64,000 nt of DNA. Source: a phage. Below are positions 39,249 through 47,652 of this stretch, piece after piece. Position numbers and translations under genes: made by a program. A model generated the notes under the pieces. The model did no database searches and had not been told where the DNA came from. It saw only the letters and a list, made by a program, of their open reading frames with translations. The number at the start of each line of letters is the position of its first letter. Positions within the stretch are counted from its first letter, which is position 1. The DNA is taken from sequence record PZ452609.1; one strand, written 5' to 3'.

Positions 39249-39317
39249 GAAACTCTGTATAATATTCACAATAGACTAAGCCTTCTTTATCTGGTAAATT
39301 TTTCAGGTAAGGAGGGC

Positions 39318-39501
39318 TTTTTCATTTCAGGATTGTGCAGGTAGAGTTCTGTAGAGAAATCTGTAGAGAGAATTTTGAACTCCAAAGAGAAAATTCATTT
39401 TCAAACTGTGCAGGTAATCTCCAAAGAGCTTTTTCATTTTCAAAACGTGCAGACCCCGCTCAGGTCGGGCAAGAAAAATCATTTTAGAATCGTGCAGGTA
39501 G
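39318..39501. repeat. four direct repeats of about 22 bp (tcatttYcaNaaYYgtgcagg), iteron-like
   Basis: Copies near 39318, 39391, 39428 and 39474, followed by a polypyrimidine tract 39524-39553. Confidence 0.6.
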
Positions 39502-39676
39502 GTTTTTATAGAGAGCCAGACCAACCCCTCTCCCCCTCTTACTCCACCTCTCCCCAAAAGTCAAGAGAAAAATTTGTAGCGGGTTGAAAAATAATTCTTG
39601 ATTTGTGTTCTGTTTTGTGGTAGTCGTGCGCGCCCGTTCATTTCCCAACCTTACAAAAAATATTTAATAAAAACCG

Positions 39677-39705
39677 TTGACACGCCAAACAAGTTTACGT
39701 ACTAT
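39677..39705 (+). promoter_or_regulatory. sigma70-like promoter heading the small-ORF array
   Basis: TTGACA, 17-bp spacer, TACTAT. Confidence 0.5.
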
Positions 39706-39754
39706 TTGCATCAGACGGGCAAGCAAGCCCACTTCCTAAACTGGAGAATCGAAA

Positions 39755-39961
39755 ATGCTTTATAGTCGTGAATTGATGGTTACAACTAACGTTAACACAA
39801 AGGTAAAACGTTTTTACATGCAAGTATGTGGCGCATGGTCTAGAATATCAGAGGCTGACTATTGCAACTATGTAGAAACAGCTATAAACTCTAATTGCTA
39901 CCTTACAAGAAATACAAGAAAGTACATAAGACAGACAGCAGTTTATTACTACGATGCCTAA
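39755..39961 (+). CDS. small hypothetical protein (array member 1)
   Basis: Preceded by conserved leader ..ctaaactggagaatcgaaa-ATG. Confidence 0.5.
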   Translation: MLYSRELMVTTNVNTKVKRFYMQVCGAWSRISEADYCNYVETAINSNCYLTRNTRKYIRQTAVYYYDA

Positions 39962-40052
39962 TAAAGTACTTTACAAGGGGCTTAAAAGCTGATATCTTAA
40001 GCCCCAGATAAAGAGCTTTACCAAATCAACCCTTAAACTAGGAGATTCAAAA
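39962..40052 (+). promoter_or_regulatory. intergenic cassette type A (conserved-stem hairpin + conserved leader/RBS)
   Basis: taaagtactttacaaggggcttaa..ttaagccccagataaagagctttacc..ctaaactaggagattcaaaa. Confidence 0.6.
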
Positions 40053-40433
40053 ATGGCATATCGTGCACCTAAATTCATCAACAAAGACAACTTTCGCAAC
40101 GCACTGGAGAAGTCACTTGATGAGAATTTTAAAGGTAACGTTATTGTTGTTCACTCGTTTAATTTTAAGTATGATATCAATGGGAATAAAATTAACCATT
40201 ACACGGCGACAATGCTAGATGGTACTCTTTCAAGTGAAAAAGCCATTTTACATGCACTTGCTGGACGTGGTAAAAACCTGATAAGATGCGATAAGAGACG
40301 TTATCAGGGTGGCGCATATGGTTACGATGATGCTGTTTATCATCTTGAAAATATGGGCTATCAAGTAGAAAAAGCTGGAGTGTCTCAAATAATCGGTAGT
40401 GATGGTTATGTAACAATCTTCAAAATTAACTGA
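40053..40433 (+). CDS. small hypothetical protein (array member 2)
   Basis: Conserved leader with GGAG RBS. Confidence 0.5.
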   Translation: MAYRAPKFINKDNFRNALEKSLDENFKGNVIVVHSFNFKYDINGNKINHYTATMLDGTLSSEKAILHALAGRGKNLIRCDKRRYQGGAYGYDDAVYHLENMGYQVEKAGVSQIIGSDGYVTIFKIN

Positions 40434-40521
40434 TAAAGTACTTTACAAGGGGCTTATAGTTCGATAAAGTAAGCCCCAGATAAAGAGCTTTACCACTAAA
40501 TCCTAAATTGGAGATTCAAAA
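40434..40521 (+). promoter_or_regulatory. intergenic cassette type A
   Basis: Same stem as other type A copies, different loop sequence. Confidence 0.6.
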
Positions 40522-40812
40522 ATGGCTACTATCAAAAACGTTGTAATTCCTGTAAAAACTCGTGATGACGCTCGCATCATGGCGAAAAAGTTAGGCGGGA
40601 AAGTGGTTGACAACGGAAAACAATCTGCTGTAAGATGGGGTGTGAAGGCTGATAAACAGTTGAAGTTAAAAAATTCACCAATAAATCTTTTTACATGTGT
40701 AAACACTATCGGAAAGACAAATGTATACACGAAAAAGGCATATATTAGACGCGTAGCCTTAACATCTCCAATTCGTACAATGAGAGGTTATGCAAAGCTG
40801 AAAATTAACTGA
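40522..40812 (+). CDS. small hypothetical protein (array member 3)
   Basis: Conserved leader with GGAG RBS. Confidence 0.5.
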   Translation: MATIKNVVIPVKTRDDARIMAKKLGGKVVDNGKQSAVRWGVKADKQLKLKNSPINLFTCVNTIGKTNVYTKKAYIRRVALTSPIRTMRGYAKLKIN

Positions 40813-40900
40813 TAAAGTACTTTACAAGGGGCTTAAAAGTTGGTATCTTAAGCCCCAGATAAAGAGCTTTACCACTCAATCCTAAACTGGAGATTCAAAA
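40813..40900 (+). promoter_or_regulatory. intergenic cassette type A
   Basis: Same stem, different loop. Confidence 0.6.
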
Positions 40901-41197
40901 ATGAAATTATCAAATAAAGTTCGTGAAAATCTAAGCAAATTACTCAACAAAATTGATTTCATTGAAACATCAAGAAATAGCCATGATGTTATGGAATGGT
41001 TACACGGCAAAATAAAAGGTCGTCGTGTAGTGATTTGCTTATGGAATAGTTGCAGGGAGTATAAAAAACCTGTATTGCAAGTTAATATCTATGATGATAC
41101 TCTTAAAAGTCCTGTCAAATCTAAAAGCGATTTACTAGATTCTTATGAGATAACTGTAAATGGCAAAGTATCACGTAAAGAGGAAGCACCATGTTAA
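40901..41197 (+). CDS. small hypothetical protein (array member 4)
   Basis: Conserved leader with GGAG RBS. Confidence 0.5.
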   Translation: MKLSNKVRENLSKLLNKIDFIETSRNSHDVMEWLHGKIKGRRVVICLWNSCREYKKPVLQVNIYDDTLKSPVKSKSDLLDSYEITVNGKVSRKEEAPC

Positions 41198-41523
41198 TGA
41201 CTGGTATCACTGCAATCATTGCCATTTTCGCGCTCTATAAGGCATATAAAGCCTATAATCTAGCAAATAAGGCAATCACACAACAGGTTAGCAATAGCCT
41301 TGTAATGAGCTTTCTAGAGCGGTTGAGCGATGAACAATTAAAGCGGTTAGAAATGAGCTTCAGATTCAGGGCGAGAACTTATCAAATCAGCGACATTTTC
41401 AAAGATGATTTTCAATTAGTCGATGATTATAATTCTCTGATAAATGCTTTAAATATTAGTGACTTAAAAGACTATCATACTGTAATTGTTCAAGAGTTGA
41501 GCAAACGAAAACAAAACTGTTGA
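41191..41523 (+). CDS. small hypothetical protein (array member 5)
   Basis: Overlapping start with upstream ORF; N-terminal hydrophobic segment. Confidence 0.4.
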   Translation: MLMTGITAIIAIFALYKAYKAYNLANKAITQQVSNSLVMSFLERLSDEQLKRLEMSFRFRARTYQISDIFKDDFQLVDDYNSLINALNISDLKDYHTVIVQELSKRKQNC

Positions 41524-41612
41524 CACTGATTTTTAGATAGATTAAATTACACATCAACGGGGAGGCAATAAACACCCCACTAAATAAAGTCCTTAAACTA
41601 GGAGATTCTAAA
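41524..41612 (+). promoter_or_regulatory. intergenic cassette type B (TTGACA promoter-like box + GGGGAGG hairpin + conserved leader)
   Basis: ttgacactgatttttagatagattaaattacacatcaacggggagg..cccc..taaagtccttaaactaggagattc. Confidence 0.6.
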
Positions 41613-41885
41613 ATGTATACTACTAACAACGGTCGCACTTTAAATGTCACTCTACGTCACTATGTAGACGGTGTGATGCACTTTGAGGATTTACAGGCTG
41701 AGCAACATATCTTAGATTGGCAAGTCGCAGGACTCCAAAAAACTGCTACCGGATACGGCAAAAAGATTCCAACTAGCTGGAAAGTATACTATGAAGGACG
41801 TTTGCGCAGAATTTATCAGGATGTATGTAGCAATAGCACATCAAGTTACATCATAGTAAAAGGTAAAAAACTGCATTTAGTATAA
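41613..41885 (+). CDS. small hypothetical protein (array member 6)
   Basis: Conserved leader with GGAG RBS. Confidence 0.5.
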   Translation: MYTTNNGRTLNVTLRHYVDGVMHFEDLQAEQHILDWQVAGLQKTATGYGKKIPTSWKVYYEGRLRRIYQDVCSNSTSSYIIVKGKKLHLV

Positions 41886-41970
41886 AGTACTTTACAGGGG
41901 GCTTATTAGTCTGTACAGTAAGCCCCAGATAAAGAGCTTTACCACTCAATCCTAAATTGGAGATTCTAAA
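41886..41970 (+). promoter_or_regulatory. intergenic cassette type A
   Basis: Same stem, different loop. Confidence 0.6.
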
Positions 41971-42375
41971 ATGGCTATTAATAATCGTGAGTTGTCAATC
42001 TTAAAAGCACGTTTAACCGTTAATCGAATCAATGTTATTACATCATCAGCACCGGATGAAACATTGCACAACATTATCGGAAAGATTCAAAGCGTTATCT
42101 TAGACGTTGAAAACGTAAAAAACTCATTGGCTGACGTTGCAGCAGGTATCACGCTAGACGGTGCACAATATGAAATGGTCGACATGTTAGGCAAATCTAA
42201 GGTAATGAATAAAGAGTTAGACTTGAAAATGTTTAGATTTGCCGTGAAAGTGTGGCTATCTGTTGAGTATGATGCTAATTTTGCAATCGCTGATTTCTTT
42301 GCCACTTGGTTACAACGTAATTTGGCAAATCATGACTTTCGTGACATCTGCGACGCAATTTATGCAGAACTCTAA
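41971..42375 (+). CDS. small hypothetical protein (array member 7)
   Basis: Conserved leader with GGAG RBS. Confidence 0.5.
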   Translation: MAINNRELSILKARLTVNRINVITSSAPDETLHNIIGKIQSVILDVENVKNSLADVAAGITLDGAQYEMVDMLGKSKVMNKELDLKMFRFAVKVWLSVEYDANFAIADFFATWLQRNLANHDFRDICDAIYAEL

Positions 42376-42476
42376 AAATTTTATTGACACTGATTTTTAG
42401 ATAGATTAAATTACACATCAACGGGGAGGGAATGACCTTCCCCACTAAGTAAAGTCCTTAAACTAGGAGATTCAAA
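42376..42476 (+). promoter_or_regulatory. intergenic cassette type B
   Basis: Near-identical to the 41524 copy including the TTGACA box. Confidence 0.6.
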
Positions 42477-42674
42477 ATGGCTATTATCAACGGTTTAACC
42501 ATTGAAACCACGCACATCAAAGACATTAAAGTTGGTGATGTAGTTCTTTCCCACGGCGTAGAAAAAACAGTCACTGCAAAGGATATCAAAGATGATTCTT
42601 TCATGGGTAGAACTCTCTTCGGTGATTCTTATTGCTTAGGTTATCTTGCAGTTTTAAAAGTTGTCAAAAATTAA
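42477..42674 (+). CDS. small hypothetical protein (array member 8)
   Basis: Conserved leader with GGAG RBS. Confidence 0.45.
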   Translation: MAIINGLTIETTHIKDIKVGDVVLSHGVEKTVTAKDIKDDSFMGRTLFGDSYCLGYLAVLKVVKN

Positions 42675-42767
42675 CTGATAAAGTACTTTACAAGGGGCTT
42701 ATAGTTCGATAAAGTAAGCCCCAGATAAAGAGCTTTACCACTAAATCCTTAAACTAGGAGATTCAAA
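42675..42767 (+). promoter_or_regulatory. intergenic cassette type A
   Basis: Same stem, different loop. Confidence 0.6.
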
Positions 42768-43310
42768 ATGAAATGCTTTCACGGTACTACTCAAGAAAAC
42801 TTTATCAACCTGATTAATAACGGTGATAAACCATCAGGTGTATGGAATTGTTCGGATATGGACGGCAATTTTTACGTGTACCCAGAAAATAAACTCTATG
42901 GTGATGATGAGGAAGAGATAGCATCGGAAGGTATCCAGCAAGCTCTAGGAAATGCCACTATCACGGCAGCTTTTCAGATGAAAACTCAAAATATTGTTAT
43001 CTTAGAACTTGACATTCCAGAGGATGAGCTAAATGATGATTATTCTTGTGATAACATGTCAAATATAGCAAGCTTTACAGAGTACTTTGATGTAAATTGG
43101 ATTAAAAAGGTCTATACAACAGAGTTCAACGCTATGTATTCACCTTTTTGTCTCCCTTCACTGGATAACCCAAATTTAAATTATCTTGATGAAACATTGG
43201 AGCTACTTGCTAAAAGTATCCAACAATCCGACAGTATTCAGGTTTTTTGTGACATCATGGATACACTGACAGAAAACATTGTAGAGAGTGATTTAAAGGT
43301 CTTTTTCTAA
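42768..43310 (+). CDS. hypothetical protein (array member 9)
   Basis: Conserved leader with GGAG RBS. Confidence 0.5.
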   Translation: MKCFHGTTQENFINLINNGDKPSGVWNCSDMDGNFYVYPENKLYGDDEEEIASEGIQQALGNATITAAFQMKTQNIVILELDIPEDELNDDYSCDNMSNIASFTEYFDVNWIKKVYTTEFNAMYSPFCLPSLDNPNLNYLDETLELLAKSIQQSDSIQVFCDIMDTLTENIVESDLKVFF

Positions 43311-43376
43311 AAACCTATACATTCACCTTATAAACACTGATTAACCCCTTACAGGGGCTTTTAGAGGGCTTAAATC

Positions 43377-43610
43377 ATGCTTACAACCATTTATCTCATC
43401 CTTTCCATTTGTAACGGCCATTCATGTGACTTTAAAGGGCTTGAAGAGTTTACAGGAAGTAAAGAAAATGCTATTCAAGTTTGCCAGATAGCAAGACAAG
43501 ACTACCCCGCCAGTGATGATATACAATGTTACTTTAAGACAGAAGATGACGAAGGAATCTATTTCGACAGTGTCGATGGTCAATATGAAATTATCATTGA
43601 AAAAGACTAG
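43377..43610 (+). CDS. small hypothetical protein (array member 10)
   Basis: 77-aa ORF after a hairpin+T-run. Confidence 0.4.
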   Translation: MLTTIYLILSICNGHSCDFKGLEEFTGSKENAIQVCQIARQDYPASDDIQCYFKTEDDEGIYFDSVDGQYEIIIEKD

Positions 43611-43703
43611 ACAAGCCTGATAAAAGTCTGTAAATTATCAATCAACGGGGAGGGAATGACCTTCCCCACTAAGTAAAGTCCTTAAACTAGGAGATTCCAA
43701 AAA
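43611..43703 (+). promoter_or_regulatory. intergenic cassette type B
   Basis: caacggggagggaatgaccttccccactaagtaaagtccttaaactaggagattc. Confidence 0.6.
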
Positions 43704-43952
43704 ATGTATACTAAAACTCAACTAAAAAACATGGTTAGCAATGGCTTAATGGATGAAGTCTATAAAGAGTGTAGACGCTACGGGGAAATTAAGGATAAGA
43801 CTAGTTATGAGTATACCCACACAATAGACTTTAAAACCAATGAGAAGAGGACTGACCTTGTTACTGTAGTAGTGATTGAGTATAAACGAATTATTTGGAC
43901 CTTTGAGCTAGTAAAAGGTGAGTGCACAGAGATAGAATATAAAGACGCTTAA
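43704..43952 (+). CDS. small hypothetical protein (array member 11)
   Basis: Conserved leader with GGAG RBS. Confidence 0.5.
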   Translation: MYTKTQLKNMVSNGLMDEVYKECRRYGEIKDKTSYEYTHTIDFKTNEKRTDLVTVVVIEYKRIIWTFELVKGECTEIEYKDA

Positions 43953-44037
43953 AGTACTTTACATGGGGCTTATTAGTCTGTATAGTAAGCCCCAGATAAA
44001 GAGCTTTACCACTCAATCCTAAACTGGAGATTCTAAA
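43953..44037 (+). promoter_or_regulatory. intergenic cassette type A
   Basis: Same stem, different loop. Confidence 0.6.
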
Positions 44038-44379
44038 ATGGCTTATGTAACCGTAATTACCGATAAAGCTGGCTCATCTTGGTCAACTCAAGTAAGTGAT
44101 AAGATGTCACCTATGCAGTGCCTAAAATACTTTGAACAGTGGAACAAAGGCGAGGGTGTAAGCCCCTTTCAAGTGATGCAAATCATCCATACAGATAACG
44201 AAGGGAATAAAACGACCTTGAACAGTGAATACTACGCAAGCCGTTTTGAAACGAGAAGTAAAACAATGAAGCTTTTACGTGAATCCGGTTATGCACATAT
44301 TGCCGCTTTAATCTGGGATGACCTGCTAAAAAGTCAGCGTATCAGCTATGTAAAGCCTGAAAAAATCTTCATAAGTTAA
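44038..44379 (+). CDS. small hypothetical protein (array member 12)
   Basis: Conserved leader with GGAG RBS. Confidence 0.5.
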   Translation: MAYVTVITDKAGSSWSTQVSDKMSPMQCLKYFEQWNKGEGVSPFQVMQIIHTDNEGNKTTLNSEYYASRFETRSKTMKLLRESGYAHIAALIWDDLLKSQRISYVKPEKIFIS

Positions 44380-44519
44380 TCAATAACTTACAAAAAACTT
44401 TTAAAAAAGTGTTGACAATACCCATTGACATTGGTAACTTTGTTCGAGGGGGTTATCTAAAAGGGATTCACTTAATAGATTCTTTATAGATAAACTTAAA
44501 AAATTGCTTGCAAAGGCAA

Positions 44520-44600
44520 ATCAAAACAAGTATAGTACTAAACAACGGGGAGGGAATGACCTTCCCCACTAAGTAAAGTCCTTAAACTAGGAGATTCAAA
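44520..44600 (+). promoter_or_regulatory. intergenic cassette type B
   Basis: Same core; preceded by a double-TTGACA region at about 44410-44440. Confidence 0.55.
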
Positions 44601-45131
44601 ATGAACAAGTTTCAAGCTATCAACTACATTCGCTCATCTAACGTTATGACTAAACCCGTTAAAGATACCTTCGAATTTCGTTGCAACGGTGTACACTTTG
44701 CAACTATCACTAAATCAGAAAACGGGGCTTATTATATACATCGTCGTAATGTTTCTACTGTTGTAGTATCTCACTTTATGCAAGCTGTAGCAGAACTGTT
44801 ACCGCTATTCTTAGGTATTTACTTAGATGAGTGTAAAAACGTTCGCAACCACGTTAAAGACCTTTTAAATGGTTATAAAATGGCTTATGAACGTTCTATC
44901 AAGAATCTTAACAAGTTCTATAAAGCCCCTGAAAACACCGTATCAATAGCTTATGATGTAAGCGGTGAAATGGTCAACCTCTCCAATGTAGAACAAATTG
45001 GCCTTTATGATTTACGTCCTAGCGGTTATTCTAAGACTCTCGGTGAAGGCTTATCCTTCAATATCAAGAACTTAGAAAAAACTTTAAAAGATATTGAAAA
45101 AGATATTGACGAGACAATCAAAAGTCTGTAA
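44601..45131 (+). CDS. hypothetical protein (array member 13)
   Basis: Conserved leader with GGAG RBS. Confidence 0.5.
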   Translation: MNKFQAINYIRSSNVMTKPVKDTFEFRCNGVHFATITKSENGAYYIHRRNVSTVVVSHFMQAVAELLPLFLGIYLDECKNVRNHVKDLLNGYKMAYERSIKNLNKFYKAPENTVSIAYDVSGEMVNLSNVEQIGLYDLRPSGYSKTLGEGLSFNIKNLEKTLKDIEKDIDETIKSL

Positions 45132-45198
45132 ATTGTCAATCAACGGGGAGGGATTAACCTTCCCACTAAGTAAAGTCCTTAAACTAGGAGATTCAAAA
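45132..45198 (+). promoter_or_regulatory. intergenic cassette type B
   Basis: Same core hairpin and leader. Confidence 0.6.
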
Positions 45199-45462
45199 AT
45201 GGAACACGTAGAATTAACCACACTATTGCAGATTGCAACTGACAAAGAAGACGTAGCGTTGTTTCACCGTATCGAAAGTGATTTGTTCAATGGTGAAATC
45301 ATTAAAGAATCTTACGAAGTTGTCGGATTCAAAGATGGTAAAGCATTTGGCTTTTTTGACCTCGACAAAAGCAAAGCGGTTACAATGTACGATGTTCTAT
45401 CTTGTGAAATTCTGACAAAATACAACGAAAAAAGGCTTGCAACCTACGCCAATATGCAGTAA
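45199..45462 (+). CDS. small hypothetical protein (array member 14)
   Basis: Start moved to MEHVELTT directly after the conserved leader; the track ORF begins upstream inside the cassette. Confidence 0.45.
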   Translation: MEHVELTTLLQIATDKEDVALFHRIESDLFNGEIIKESYEVVGFKDGKAFGFFDLDKSKAVTMYDVLSCEILTKYNEKRLATYANMQ

Positions 45463-45530
45463 ATTACTAAACAACGGGGAGGGAATGACCTTCCCCACTA
45501 AATAAAGTCCTAAACTGGAGATTCTAAATT
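45463..45530 (+). promoter_or_regulatory. intergenic cassette type B
   Basis: Same core hairpin and leader. Confidence 0.6.
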
Positions 45531-45779
45531 ATGTCAACTATCCGCGTAACTGTTAATGCTTATGGCTGCCACCAACTTGATGCAAAATTCGATATCGGTG
45601 GAACAGATAACACCTTTGACCTTATCAAAATGCTGATTCAGCAGGTGATACCAGATTATAACCCTACTGATGACTTCTGGAAAGATGCCGTAAAAGAAGC
45701 CATAAACGAGGAATCTCACTACCATTATTGGGGTGACTTGATTGTCTCTCTGTACTACAGCAAACAAGGTTACAACTAA
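45531..45779 (+). CDS. small hypothetical protein (array member 15)
   Basis: Conserved leader with GGAG RBS; followed by terminator hairpins. Confidence 0.5.
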   Translation: MSTIRVTVNAYGCHQLDAKFDIGGTDNTFDLIKMLIQQVIPDYNPTDDFWKDAVKEAINEESHYHYWGDLIVSLYYSKQGYN

Positions 45780-46478
45780 TCGACGCAGCGGGGCTAAATA
45801 GCCCCAGATACCTGAAAAGCTCCTTCTCATAGGGGCTTTTTTACGTCTATAAAGAGACTCTATACAATCCCTTTCCTTTCCTTCCTAGAATCTATCCCGT
45901 ACCTTAAAAGCAATAACTCTATAGCTTACTCTATAACCCCTTATCAAATCAACTTAAATATAAGCCCATAACCCGAAAGGGAAGGGCAACCATTTAAACG
46001 CTCTATAAAGCCCTATAACAGCCTTATCAACCTAACTTAAGCAATCATATTAACCCACTCTAAAAAGCCCTTTATAGAGCTTTCTAGAGCCTTAAAAGAA
46101 TCTTATAAGGGTGTGAGCTTTATCATCTCGTTAGCTATCTTGTGAACTACTAAAAAGGGCTTGTTAGTGTCTTAAAAGTATGTTATAGGGGCTATAAAGT
46201 TACTTTGAAGTAGCTTAAAAGTTACGTAAATGCTAGCCCCCTTAACATTTTCTTAACAATTTCTTAACAATCCCTACATAGTTATGCTTTTAAGGCACTT
46301 GTTAGCAACTTGTTAGCCCCTTGTTAAATCTCTGTTAAGACCACGTAAAAGCCTTGTAAGAACCTTTGACATAGCCTTAAAAGCTCCTGTAAAGCCCTAT
46401 AAAGAGCTATCCATACAGTTGAGGGGTAGATACTAGGAAGAGGCTTAAAAGAGCTTACAAGGAGCTATAGAGAGCTTT

Positions 46479-46599
46479 TAAAAGGTATGTTTAGAGAATC
46501 ACTAAGAGAGAAAGGGAACGATAAGAAAAGAGATAGTGACCATGTTAATAGCTTGTTAAAAAGATTAAACACTTGTTAGGAACTTGTTAATTATCTTAA
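46479..46599. repeat. direct repeat copy 1 flanking the N gap
   Basis: About 120 bp identical to 46700-46818. Confidence 0.8.
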
Positions 46600-46699
46600 N
46601 NNNNNNNNNNNNNNNNNNNNNNNNNNNNNNNNNNNNNNNNNNNNNNNNNNNNNNNNNNNNNNNNNNNNNNNNNNNNNNNNNNNNNNNNNNNNNNNNNNN
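46600..46699. other. assembly gap (100 N)
   Basis: Run of exactly 100 n. Confidence 0.95.
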
Positions 46700-46818
46700 T
46701 AAAAGGTATGTTTAGAGAATCACTAAGAGAGAAAGGGAACGATAAGAAAAGAGATAGTGACCATGTTAATAGCTTGTTAAAAAGATTAAACACTTGTTAG
46801 GAACTTGTTAATTATCTT
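46700..46818. repeat. direct repeat copy 2 flanking the N gap
   Basis: Identical to 46479-46599. Confidence 0.8.
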
Positions 46819-47652
46819 AACAAAATAACTCTTTAAAATTAACTTGTTAGCTCTTGTTAGTTATCTGTTAAGATTCTGTAAAGCCCTACCAAAGCTTGTT
46901 AGAAAACTGTTAAGTTCTTGTTAGTTCTGTTAAGAAACTGTTAAGACCTTTGAAGAGATGTTAAGAGCTTGAGAGAGTTGTTAAGATGTTGTTAAGGATA
47001 TTTTAAAATTTTGCAAAGTACTTGTAAGGGAGCTGTTAAGGGCTACCAAGCAGATATACATCTTCTACAGATATTTTTGAGTTCCTTCAAAGACCCTAAA
47101 AAATGACTTGACAGTCTTATTTTATAAAAATTTTAAAATTCTGAATAATTACTTATACAGTCTTTTAAAAATACAGGTAGAAACAGGCTTATAAGATACC
47201 TTGTTAGTACCGTGTTAGACCTTGTGAGATAAGGTCTGTAAAGATATTCCTGTTAAGTTTGTTAAAACAGTCTATATAGAGGCTTAGTAGTGCCTAGTGA
47301 ACACCTATAGAGAGTATCATAGCTGACATAGAGATTAAGGGGTGTATAGAGGCTTCTAAGAGCGTATAGAGAGATGGTTAAGGTGATTGTATAGGTTGTT
47401 AAGAAGGCTTGTTAGAAGAGTGTTTAGAGGGCTATTTAGAAGGGTTATACAGAGGGGCTATTAAGACCACTAGATAGTTACTAAGACACTATATAGTACT
47501 ATATAACTATATATAGAGAGTAAGATTAAGAAGGTTGTTAAGAAGGATAGATATTTTATTCACATATGATGGTGACCCAGAGGTTGGAACAACCGATAAA
47601 ATTTTTATAAAAATTAAAAAAAGCCCCCAATTAAGGAGGCTCTTAAGATATT

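What the first reader, a model, noticed from the sequence alone, without database searches (positions are those of the whole stretch)
39755..45850. Array of 15 small ORFs separated by two alternating families of conserved hairpin+leader cassettes
Each small gene (65-180 aa) is preceded by an almost identical leader (ctaaactaggagattcaaaa-ATG). The genes are separated by one of two cassette types: type A, a 9-bp-stem hairpin ggggcttaa...ttaagcccc whose loop sequence differs in every copy; or type B, a GGGGAGG...CCTTCCCC hairpin, in some copies with a TTGACA-17-TAAATT promoter-like box. Stem conservation with variable loops implies selection on structure. The layout resembles mobile regulatory cassettes that shuffle small early genes in hyperplastic phage regions, where host-takeover and anti-defence genes often reside.
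Basis: seen in the sequence. Interest (0 to 1): 0.75.

Follow-up and report, generated by a model that had tools for sequence, protein, structure and literature searches.

The report
Promoter-hairpin gene cassettes in Felix O1-like phage
In this Felix O1-like coliphage, 15 small genes of unknown function are each preceded by a conserved unit of promoter, RNA hairpin and ribosome-binding leader, and related phages have gained, lost and swapped single genes by recombining between these units, as described for "PeSL" cassettes in T4-like phages.

Summary
The window is Escherichia typing phage 1 (Felixounavirus) and holds 15 ORFs, 6 type A cassettes, 6 type B cassettes and a B-like head of the array. 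No matches are expected by chance.

Three details are wrong:
- The two types do not alternate.
- The loops are not all different (A2 = A5).
- Every cassette carries a sigma-70-type promoter, not only some B copies.

In type A the "variable loop" is the -10 box. All 75 copies from 14 phages of four genera read T(T/C)TACA, 17-18 nt, TAnnnT. In type B the hairpin starts 10 nt after the -10 box in 66 of 67 copies, so it lies at the 5' end of the transcript.

The type A stems covary (95.5% paired against 32-55% in slid controls) and show frequent U·G pairs. Type A cassettes evolve about 5 times slower than synonymous sites of the neighbouring genes. Copies are homogenised within each genome.

Where one phage lacks a gene, its junction cassette is a chimera of the two cassettes that flank that gene in a relative.

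Best reading: PeSL-like promoter/stem-loop/leader modules that drive and shuffle early genes. This is a new member of a known kind. The repeats were already listed as direct repeats for Felix O1 and wV8, without interpretation. Promoter activity and the RNA role of the hairpins are inferred.

The parts
39278..39319 (+). Intrinsic terminator after the macro-domain gene; upstream boundary of the array
   Evidence: 17-pair stem followed by TTTTCATTT. Equals Felix O1 terminator t13 (PMC3185647, Table 2).
39677..39754 (+). Head-of-array unit: TTGACA-17-TACTAT promoter, weak GGGC/GCCC hairpin, leader CCTAAACTGGAGAATCGAAA
   Evidence: In wV8, Phi87 and VpaE1, which lack g1, a canonical B hairpin plus leader sits here.
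39755..39961 (+). g1, 68 aa, unknown function (phrog_5293)
   Evidence: dN/dS 0.14. Absent in wV8, Phi87 and VpaE1.
39962..40052 (+). Cassette A1: TTTACA-17-TATCTT promoter inside a bipartite hairpin, then the leader
   Evidence: z -3.9.
40053..40433 (+). g2, 126 aa, unknown function (phrog_4495)
40434..40521 (+). Cassette A2 (-10 TAAAGT); core identical to A5
   Evidence: z -5.0.
40522..40812 (+). g3, 96 aa, unknown function (phrog_5089); two allele types among relatives
   Evidence: Absent in Wec177 and Felix O1.
40813..40900 (+). Cassette A3 (-10 TATCTT)
40901..41197 (+). g4, 98 aa, unknown function (phrog_4401)
41191..41523 (+). g5, 110 aa, overlaps g4 by 7 nt and has no cassette; its TGA stop lies inside the -35 box of B1
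41520..41612 (+). Cassette B1: TTGACA-17-TAAATT, degenerate hairpin GGGGAGGCAATAAACACCCC, leader
41613..41885 (+). g6, 90 aa, unknown function (phrog_3436)
41886..41970 (+). Cassette A4 (-10 TACAGT); the TAA stop of g6 forms the first bases of the cassette
41971..42375 (+). g7, 134 aa, unknown function (phrog_4327)
42384..42476 (+). Cassette B2: TTGACA-17-TAAATT, hairpin GGGGAGGG/CCTTCCCC, leader
42477..42674 (+). g8, 65 aa, unknown function (phrog_3623); an unrelated gene (x12) occupies this slot in Mordin and SUSP1
42675..42767 (+). Cassette A5 (-10 TAAAGT)
42768..43310 (+). g9, 180 aa; weak ADP-ribosyltransferase-fold matches; homolog of Bas63 g107
43311..43376 (+). Non-cassette junction: CCCCTTACAGGGG hairpin followed by CTTTT, with its own GAGGG Shine-Dalgarno
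   Evidence: Annotated as a Rho-independent terminator in wV8.
43377..43610 (+). g10, 77 aa, unknown function (phrog_4640); its TAG stop lies in the -35 box of B3
43608..43703 (+). Cassette B3: TAGACA-17-TAAATT, hairpin, leader
43704..43952 (+). [not shown]
43953..44037 (+). Cassette A6 (-10 TATAGT; 12-bp upper stem)
   Evidence: z -6.8.
44038..44379 (+). g12, 113 aa, unknown function (phrog_4318)
44508..44600 (+). Cassette B4: TTGCAA-17-TATAGT, hairpin, leader. It follows 128 nt of extra spacer that contains TTGACA twice.
44601..45131 (+). g13, 176 aa, unknown function (phrog_4725); its 3' end encodes the -35 box of B5 and its TAA stop starts the -10 box
45106..45198 (+). Cassette B5: TTGACG-17-TAAATT, hairpin GGGGAGG/CCTTCCC, leader
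45199..45462 (+). g14, 87 aa, unknown function (phrog_7022); present in 5 of 11 related genomes
45437..45530 (+). Cassette B6: TTGCAA-17-TAAATT (8 of 12 consensus positions, below the scan threshold), hairpin, leader
45531..45779 (+). g15, 82 aa, unknown function (phrog_4559); the most divergent gene of the array
45790..45846 (+). End of the array: remnant cassette hairpin GGGGCTAAATAGCCCC followed by AGATACC, then a terminator-like stem ending in TTTTTT
   Evidence: z -4.6. Same position as Felix O1 terminator t23 and the terminator annotated in Mordin. Not flagged by the scan.

Best explanation
The array is the plastic early-gene block of a Felix O1-like phage. Almost every small gene in it is a self-contained expression module. 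The whole intergenic space, from the stop codon to the ATG, is a conserved cassette made of a host-type (sigma-70) promoter, a G/C-rich stem-loop and a standard 5' leader with a GGAG Shine-Dalgarno.

Type A:
- The promoter is embedded in a bipartite hairpin of about 20 bp.
- The -35 box (TTTACA) lies in the 5' arm of the lower stem. The -10 box (TAnnnT) lies in the apical loop and the 3' arm.
- The predicted start site is the first base after the upper stem.
- The hairpin therefore exists only in RNA that reads through from upstream. There it would attenuate, be processed, or protect the 3' end.

Type B:
- The hairpin starts 10 nt after the -10 box, which is 2-4 nt from the predicted 5' end.
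- It would act as a 5'-terminal stabiliser for its own transcript and as a barrier or 3' end for read-through RNA.

Both types share their last 35 nt or so (ACTAAAT...CCTAAACTGGAGATTC...ATG). The cassettes therefore also give 35-90 bp of portable homology. Recombination between two cassettes deletes, inserts or replaces one gene plus one cassette without breaking the expression of neighbouring genes. This is the PeSL principle described for T4-like phages.

Shown here: the sequence anatomy, conservation, covariation, within-genome homogenisation and chimeric junctions. Inferred: promoter activity, early timing, what the hairpins do in RNA, and the recombination pathway.
For: Promoters:
- An independent scan flags all six A copies and five of the six B copies.
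- In 14 loci from 4 genera, 75 of 75 A copies read T(T/C)TACA, 17 nt (72 copies) or 18 nt (3 copies), then TAnnnT, with 13 different hexamers.
- 67 of 67 B copies read T[TA]Gnnn-17-TAnnnT, and the hairpin starts 10 nt after the -10 box in 66 of 67.
- In 39 distinct A sequences, CTTTACA and positions T1, A2 and T6 of the -10 box are invariant while positions 3-5 vary.

Structure:
- z-scores are -3.9 to -6.8 for A and -2.2 to -2.8 for B.
- 95.5% of cells are paired, against 32-55% in slid controls.
- Compensatory changes are GC to UA at 19-45 and at 6-58, and five pair types at 26-39.
- U·G at 21-43 occurs in 22 of 39 sequences, which favours RNA pairing.
- There are 35 distinct B hairpins, nearly all with 6-8 bp G/C stems.

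Selection:
- A cassettes have a JC distance of 0.09 between TP1 and LinBro, against dS of 0.2-0.65 (1.2 for g15) in the genes.
- The A core is on average about 88-90% identical (best-matching copy) to genera whose genes are 50-80% identical.

Recombination:
- Cassettes occur only in the array.
- Indels are units of one gene plus one cassette. There is also a slot replacement and a translocated gene.
- Junction cassettes are left/right chimeras in four independent cases, including one B-left/A-leader chimera.
- Paralogs within a genome are more alike than different-slot copies across genomes, with 0 of 500 permutations reaching the observed difference.
- Mordin carries a tandem A-A scar.

Timing and boundaries:
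- Felix O1 ORFs 16, 20, 21 and 22 peak at 5 min, and terminators t13 and t23 bracket the array.

Concept:
Against: - No transcript data exist for these phages in the searched literature. Promoter use, start sites and early timing are therefore predictions, and the Felix O1 RT-PCR table is crude.
- Neither hairpin is followed by a U-tract, so strong intrinsic termination is not expected.
- Some -35 and -10 boxes are weak. B6 matches 8 of 12 consensus positions, and TAAATT matches 4 of 6.
- The covariation rests on few independent events. The GC to UA change at 19-45 is a single lineage.
- Because nearly every junction holds a cassette, whole-gene indels would be cassette-bounded anyway. Only the chimeric junctions and the homogenisation discriminate.
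- The neighbouring cassette-free block also shows indels: 5 of 10 families are universal there, against 7 of 25 in the array.
Confidence: 0.75

Rival explanations
1. The type A hairpin is chiefly an RNase III processing site, as in the T7 early region. It would cut a polycistronic early transcript into monocistronic mRNAs with protective 3' hairpins. This is compatible with the main explanation and could be the RNA role of the hairpin.
For: - The hairpin has about 20 bp in two stems of 11 and 9 bp, separated by a 3x3 internal loop.
- Both stems covary and use U·G pairs.
- There is no U-tract.
- A cut on the 3' side of the internal loop would give about the same 5' end as the embedded promoter (inference).
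- The general shape of T7 RNase III sites is taken from my own knowledge.
Against: - There are no cleavage data.
- The invariant TTTACA and TAnnnT at 17 nt are not explained by an RNase III site.
- Type B hairpins (6-8 bp) are too short for RNase III.
Confidence: 0.3
2. The conserved palindromes TAAAGTACTTTA (overlapping the -35 box) and TAAAGAGCTTTA (at +5 to +16) are DNA operators for a phage or host repressor that shuts off the early promoters. On this view the apparent lower stem is a by-product of two copies of a palindromic site.
For: - TAAAGTACTTTA is a perfect 12-bp palindrome, and a second near-palindrome follows the start site.
- GATAAAGA is invariant beyond what pairing requires.
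- A degenerate copy, TAAAGTCCTTAA, sits in the B leader.
Against: - The GC to UA compensation at 6-58 links the left half of site 1 to the right half of site 2. This is expected for a hairpin and not for independent operators.
- No candidate regulator was identified.
- This view does not explain the upper stem.
Confidence: 0.12
3. The cassettes are only transcript-end elements (terminators or REP-like 3' stabilisers) on one long transcript from the head promoter at 39677. The -35/-10 matches would then be incidental.
For: - wV8 annotators called two of the hairpins terminators.
- In T4-like phages a PeSL stem-loop reduced downstream lacZ expression like a strong terminator (PMC2839356).
Against: - There is no U-tract.
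- Loop positions T1, A2 and T6 are invariant at a fixed 17-nt spacing from an invariant TTTACA across four genera.
- B hairpins sit at a fixed 10 nt after a -10 box in 66 of 67 copies.
Confidence: 0.08
4. The hairpins are sites for a dedicated site-specific recombinase or a selfish mobile element, like integron attC sites or MITEs.
For: The array of small ORFs separated by hairpins with a conserved fold looks superficially like an integron cassette array. The PeSL authors also speculated about a GGGG...CCCC-binding protein.
Against: - No integrase or transposase is annotated within 12 kb.
- Crossover points differ between cases, lying in the loop-to-leader interval or in the shared leader. This fits general homologous recombination.
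- U·G pairs would be T·G mismatches in DNA.
- The cassettes are confined to one locus of Ounavirinae-sized genomes.
Confidence: 0.04

Closest known systems
PeSLs (promoter-early stem-loops) of T4-like phages (Arbiol et al. 2010, PMC2839356; Comeau et al. 2014, PMC4122927)
   Same: - Intergenic repeated units made of a sigma-70-like promoter, a GGGG/CCCC stem-loop, a Shine-Dalgarno and a start codon.
- The stem-loop lies between or over the -35 and -10 boxes (our type A) or downstream of the -10 box (our type B).
- The units are concentrated in a plastic block of small genes of unknown function.
- Indels between relatives are explained by recombination between cassettes.
   Different: - The host lineage is Ounavirinae, not T4-like.
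- There are only two sharply conserved architectures in one locus, kept across four genera.
- Type A is a bipartite hairpin of about 20 bp that encloses the whole promoter.
- The full 5' leader is standardised.
- Promoter activity, terminator activity and mini-circles are not shown here.
RNase III processing sites of the T7 early region (from my own knowledge)
   Same: Irregular hairpins of about 20 bp with an internal loop lie between small early genes transcribed by host RNA polymerase, with no U-tract.
   Different: T7 sites carry no embedded promoter. Cleavage is untested here. Type B hairpins are too short.
5'-terminal stabilising stem-loops such as the ompA 5' UTR (Emory, Bouvet and Belasco 1992; from my own knowledge)
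   Same: The type B hairpin is predicted to begin 2-4 nt from the 5' end, which is the geometry reported to protect mRNA from 5'-end-dependent decay.
   Different: The start site is predicted, not mapped, and half-life was not measured.
Integron attC gene-cassette arrays
   Same: A tandem array of small ORFs, each associated with an imperfect inverted repeat, with gain and loss of single ORFs.
   Different: - No integrase is present.
- Each unit has its own promoter.
- The sequence is conserved, not only the fold.
- Crossovers lie at variable points within homologous sequence.

Membership tests
PeSL (promoter-early stem-loop cassette) | Repeated intergenic motif containing sigma-70-type -35 and -10 boxes | tested here: met
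   75 of 75 A copies and 67 of 67 B copies. CTTTACA and T1, A2, T6 of the -10 box are invariant.
PeSL (promoter-early stem-loop cassette) | Stable stem-loop with G and C tracts, placed between or over the promoter boxes or just downstream of the -10 box | tested here: met
   folds, z -2.2 to -6.8; covariation; 35 B variants; fixed 10-nt offset.
PeSL (promoter-early stem-loop cassette) | Runs from the upstream stop codon (in an AT-rich stretch) to the Shine-Dalgarno and start codon of the next gene | tested here: met
   the stop codons abut or overlap the cassette starts (TGATAAAGT; the TAA of TAAATT). GGAG lies 8-9 nt before the ATG.
PeSL (promoter-early stem-loop cassette) | Clustered in a hyperplastic region of small genes of unknown function | tested here: met
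   array only; 7 of 25 families universal; all of unknown function.
PeSL (promoter-early stem-loop cassette) | Indels between close relatives have junctions formed by recombination between two cassettes | tested here: met
   four chimeric junctions; homogenisation within genomes.
PeSL (promoter-early stem-loop cassette) | Measured promoter and terminator/attenuator activity; excised mini-circles | not testable with these tools
   This needs reporter fusions, transcript-end mapping and inverse PCR.
Intrinsic (Rho-independent) terminator | G/C-rich hairpin immediately followed by a U-tract | tested here: not met
   flags none of the 12 cassettes. The tails are AGATAAAG (A) and ACTAAGTA (B). Only the flanking elements (39278-39319 and about 45820-45846) and the g9/g10 junction have T-runs.
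RNase III processing site (T7 type) | Irregular duplex of about 20 bp with an internal loop on a polycistronic transcript | tested here: inconclusive
   Type A has this shape. Whether read-through transcripts exist, and whether they are cleaved, is unknown.
Integron attC cassette array | Adjacent tyrosine-recombinase integrase (IntI) and promoterless cassettes | tested here: not met
   No integrase is annotated within 12 kb. Every cassette has its own promoter-like boxes.
Any Rfam RNA family | Covariance-model match | tested here: not met
   there is no match in the array at E <= 1 except one chance snoRNA-like hit below threshold.

The most novel reading that the evidence does not exclude
The type A unit may be a true dual-code element. 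The same 62 nt would act as a promoter in DNA and, in read-through RNA, as a processing hairpin (RNase III-type). Cleavage of that hairpin would yield the same 5' end as initiation at the embedded promoter. Each gene would then get an identical, standardised mRNA whether it is transcribed from its own promoter or from upstream.

Together with the B units, this would form an integrase-free gene-cassette system. It would be kept uniform by gene conversion and conserved across the subfamily Ounavirinae, letting the phage plug small host-takeover or anti-defence genes in and out.
Probability: 0.2. Interest if true: 0.65.

Novelty: new member of a known kind. Interest (0 to 1): 0.5.

Why it matters
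- Felix O1-like phages are used for Salmonella and E. coli typing, food safety and therapy, yet their early transcription is undescribed. The Felix O1 paper found few promoters and left open how transcription is organised.
- These cassettes would supply about 13 early promoters per genome.
- They would explain why the repeats listed for Felix O1 and wV8 exist.
- They show that the PeSL way of shuffling small genes is not peculiar to T4-like phages.
- The cassettes mark a defined, non-disruptive landing pad for engineering, and a place to look for host-takeover or anti-defence genes.

Tried and rejected
1. RegB idea. The Mordin record calls the gene after rIIB "similar to T4 RegB", which cuts GGAG in early Shine-Dalgarno sequences. 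The TP1 homolog has no RegB Pfam match, only a sub-threshold SLT hit, and no PDB sequence match. I dropped the idea.
2. Genome end. The N-run at 46600-46699 with duplicated flanks looked like a terminal repeat. The GenBank record is continuous there, so it is an assembly gap.
3. Rfam gave nothing.
4. Pfam and PHROGs place all 15 proteins in unknown-function families.
5. Literature. No paper in the library interprets these repeats. The Felix O1 paper lists them as 57-bp and 39-bp direct repeats, and the wV8 record annotates DR_1 to DR_9, although the wV8 paper text does not mention them.
6. Spread beyond the subfamily. A degenerate type A pattern hit 48 stretches in IMG/VR, all on contigs of 54-94 kb typical of Ounavirinae. 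BLAST hits fell in Ounavirinae-type records of Escherichia, Salmonella, Shigella, Citrobacter, Erwinia and Cronobacter phages.
7. Integron, MITE and plain-terminator readings were rejected (see the rivals).

Full report
**Identity and observation**

Window bases 39600-45900 are 100% identical to Escherichia typing phage 1 (KP869100; Felixounavirus, Ounavirinae) and 99.7% identical to wV8. The region holds 15 + strand ORFs of 65-180 aa.

Pattern searches give six GGGGCTTA-N13-TAAGCCCC hairpins, five exact CAACGGGGAGG...CCCCACTAA hairpins (a sixth has a 1-nt deletion) and seven exact-type leaders. About 0-1 matches are expected in shuffles. Profile searches find the two cassette types nowhere else in the 64-kb window.

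The order of junctions is A A A (overlap) B A B A (other) B A B B B, so the types do not alternate. The loops fall into three near-identical pairs, so they do not all differ. The wV8 GenBank record already annotates these repeats as DR_1 to DR_9. The Felix O1 paper lists a 57-bp and a 39-bp direct repeat, with no interpretation. The wV8 paper text does not mention them.

**Anatomy of type A**

An independent consensus scan flags every A copy as TTTACA-17-TAnnnT.

The RNA fold is a bipartite hairpin:
- a lower stem of 11 bp (TAAAGT.CTTTA with TAAAG.GCTTTA);
- a 3x3 internal loop;
- an upper stem of 9-12 bp;
- free energy of -21 to -28 kcal/mol and z-scores of -3.9 to -6.8.

The -35 box lies in the 5' arm of the lower stem. 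With the usual spacing, the start site is the first base after the upper stem (AGATAAAG...). Transcripts from this promoter therefore lack the hairpin. Only read-through RNA from upstream contains it. This last step is inference.

**Anatomy of type B**

All six copies have a -35-like box (TTGACA, TAGACA, TTGCAA or TTGACG), a 17-nt spacer and TAAATT or TATAGT. The stop codon of the upstream gene often lies inside the -35 or the -10 box.

The 6-8 bp hairpin GGGGAGGG/CCTTCCCC follows 10 nt after the -10 box, which is 2-4 nt from the predicted 5' end. Then comes ACTAAGTAAAGTCCTTAAACTAGGAGATTC and the ATG. A and B share the last 35 nt or so. A similar unit heads the array at 39677-39754. Terminator-like elements bracket the array at 39278-39319 and about 45820-45846, matching Felix O1 terminators t13 and t23.

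**Comparative evidence for function**

I fetched the homologous locus from 13 further phages of four genera: Felixounavirus, Mooglevirus, Suspvirus and Kolesnikvirus. The cassettes occur only between the macro-domain gene and a non-coding stretch of about 1.7 kb. There are 75 A and 67 B copies, and Kolesnikvirus has A only.

Promoter boxes:
- Every A copy reads T(T/C)TACA, 17 nt (72 copies) or 18 nt (3 copies), then TAnnnT, with 13 different hexamers.
- Every B copy reads T[TA]Gnnn-17-TAnnnT.
- The B hairpin starts 10 nt after the -10 box in 66 of 67 copies.

In 39 distinct A cores, CTTTACA, positions T1, A2 and T6 of the -10 box, and GATAAAGA are invariant.

On the bipartite structure, 95.5% of cells pair, against 32-55% when the partners are slid. 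Compensatory changes are:
- GC to UA at 19-45 (Kolesnikvirus);
- GC to UA at 6-58 (two slot lineages);
- five pair types at 26-39.

U·G occurs at 21-43 in 22 of 39 sequences, which fits RNA rather than DNA pairing. The number of independent events is small.

B hairpins come in 35 variants that nearly all keep a G/C stem.

All 15 ORFs have dN/dS of 0.04-0.24, so they are real genes. Their dS against LinBro is 0.2-0.65 (1.2 for g15), while A cassettes differ by a JC distance of 0.09 and B cassettes (-10 box to ATG) by 0.23. Against Mooglevirus and Suspvirus, the A core is on average about 88-90% identical (best-matching copy) while the genes are 50-80% identical.

**Evidence for recombination**

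Gene maps show collinear arrays that differ by single units of one gene plus one cassette (x4+A, g11+A, g14+B, g3+A and g1). They also show:
- a slot replacement (g8 against x12);
- a gene found in two different slots (x18);
- a B-to-B deletion in Felix O1;
- reshuffled order in Kolesnikvirus.

In four cases the junction cassette of the shorter genome is a chimera. Its left part matches the left-flanking cassette of the longer genome and its right part matches the right-flanking cassette. One case joins a B left part to an A leader, with the crossover in the shared leader. Mordin carries two A cassettes joined head to tail at a CTTTAC microhomology.

Copies within a genome are more alike than different-slot copies in other genomes: 0.855 against 0.821 for A, and 0.797 against 0.748 for B, with 0 of 500 permutations reaching the observed difference. 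Lineage-specific stem variants are shared by all copies in a genome. This indicates gene conversion.

The array is more variable than the cassette-free block upstream. Seven of 25 families are universal in the array, against 5 of 10 upstream, and nucleotide identity is 85-92% against 95-98%. The numbers are small, and indels also occur without cassettes.

**Comparison with what is known**

The PeSLs of T4-like phages are defined as intergenic sigma-70-like promoters with a GGGG/CCCC stem-loop. The stem-loop can lie between or over the boxes or just downstream of the -10 box. PeSLs end in a Shine-Dalgarno and start codon, cluster in hyperplastic regions and mediate indels. Every sequence-level feature is met here. 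The experimental features (promoter and terminator activity, mini-circles) cannot be tested with these tools.

I found no paper that applies this idea to Felix O1-like phages. The cassettes are not canonical terminators, because they lack a U-tract. They match no Rfam family. There is no integrase nearby. The type A shape fits an RNase III site, which would be a compatible RNA-level role.

**Gene functions**

All 15 proteins fall in unknown-function families.

- lower-scoring matches to ArtA, DarT and PARP.

This agrees with a remark on the Bas63 homolog g107, which is conditionally important in strain S17-1 (PMC11482910). The scores are low, so this is a lead and not an assignment.

Felix O1 RT-PCR places ORFs 16, 20, 21 and 22 of the array among the transcripts that peak at 5 min.

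**Verdict**

The feature is real and under selection. It is best read as PeSL-like promoter/stem-loop/leader cassettes that drive and shuffle early genes across Ounavirinae. It is a new member of a known kind, of moderate interest. The open questions are what the hairpins do in RNA and what the genes do.

Noticed in passing
window 45850-47640: This non-coding stretch of about 1.8 kb lies between the array and the convergent minus-strand genes. It holds 32 copies of TGTTA[AG] on the + strand against 4 on the - strand, or 17.9 per kb against 0.7 per kb elsewhere. Many copies are 10-11 nt apart (for example 46300, 46311, 46322, 46333). It may be a phased protein-binding array, an origin or a packaging region. 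About four copies are counted twice because of the duplicated gap flanks.
   Followed up: partly
window 46600-46699 (flanks about 46479-46599 and 46700-46820): A run of 100 N is flanked by a duplicated segment of about 121 nt. KP869100 is continuous here, so this is an unmerged assembly gap and not a genome end. The window also carries one extra 11-nt unit near 46245 relative to KP869100.
   Followed up: yes
window 39320-39600: The untranslated leader region before the head promoter has four copies of a motif of about 30 nt (TCATTTTCAAA.. GTGCAGGTA), followed by a polypyrimidine tract CCCCTCTCCCCCTCTTACTCCACCTCTCCCC. Some relatives annotate small minus-strand ORFs here.
   Followed up: no
[not shown]
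   Followed up: partly
L007 (Citrobacter phage Mordin) 8473-8621: Two type A cassettes lie in tandem with no gene between them, joined at a CTTTAC microhomology between the 3' arm of the first and the 5' arm of the second. This looks like a deletion scar. SUSP1 and Wec177 have an extra gene (x23) near this position.
   Followed up: partly
window 44380-44507: The g12/g13 spacer is 221 nt, the longest in the array. Ahead of cassette B4 it contains GTGTTGACAATACCCATTGACATTGG with two TTGACA boxes. It may be the remnant of a lost gene or an additional promoter.
   Followed up: no
(phages collection): One record labelled Staphylococcus and one labelled Campylobacter carry these Ounavirinae cassettes. 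This is probably mislabelling or contamination in the database.
   Followed up: no
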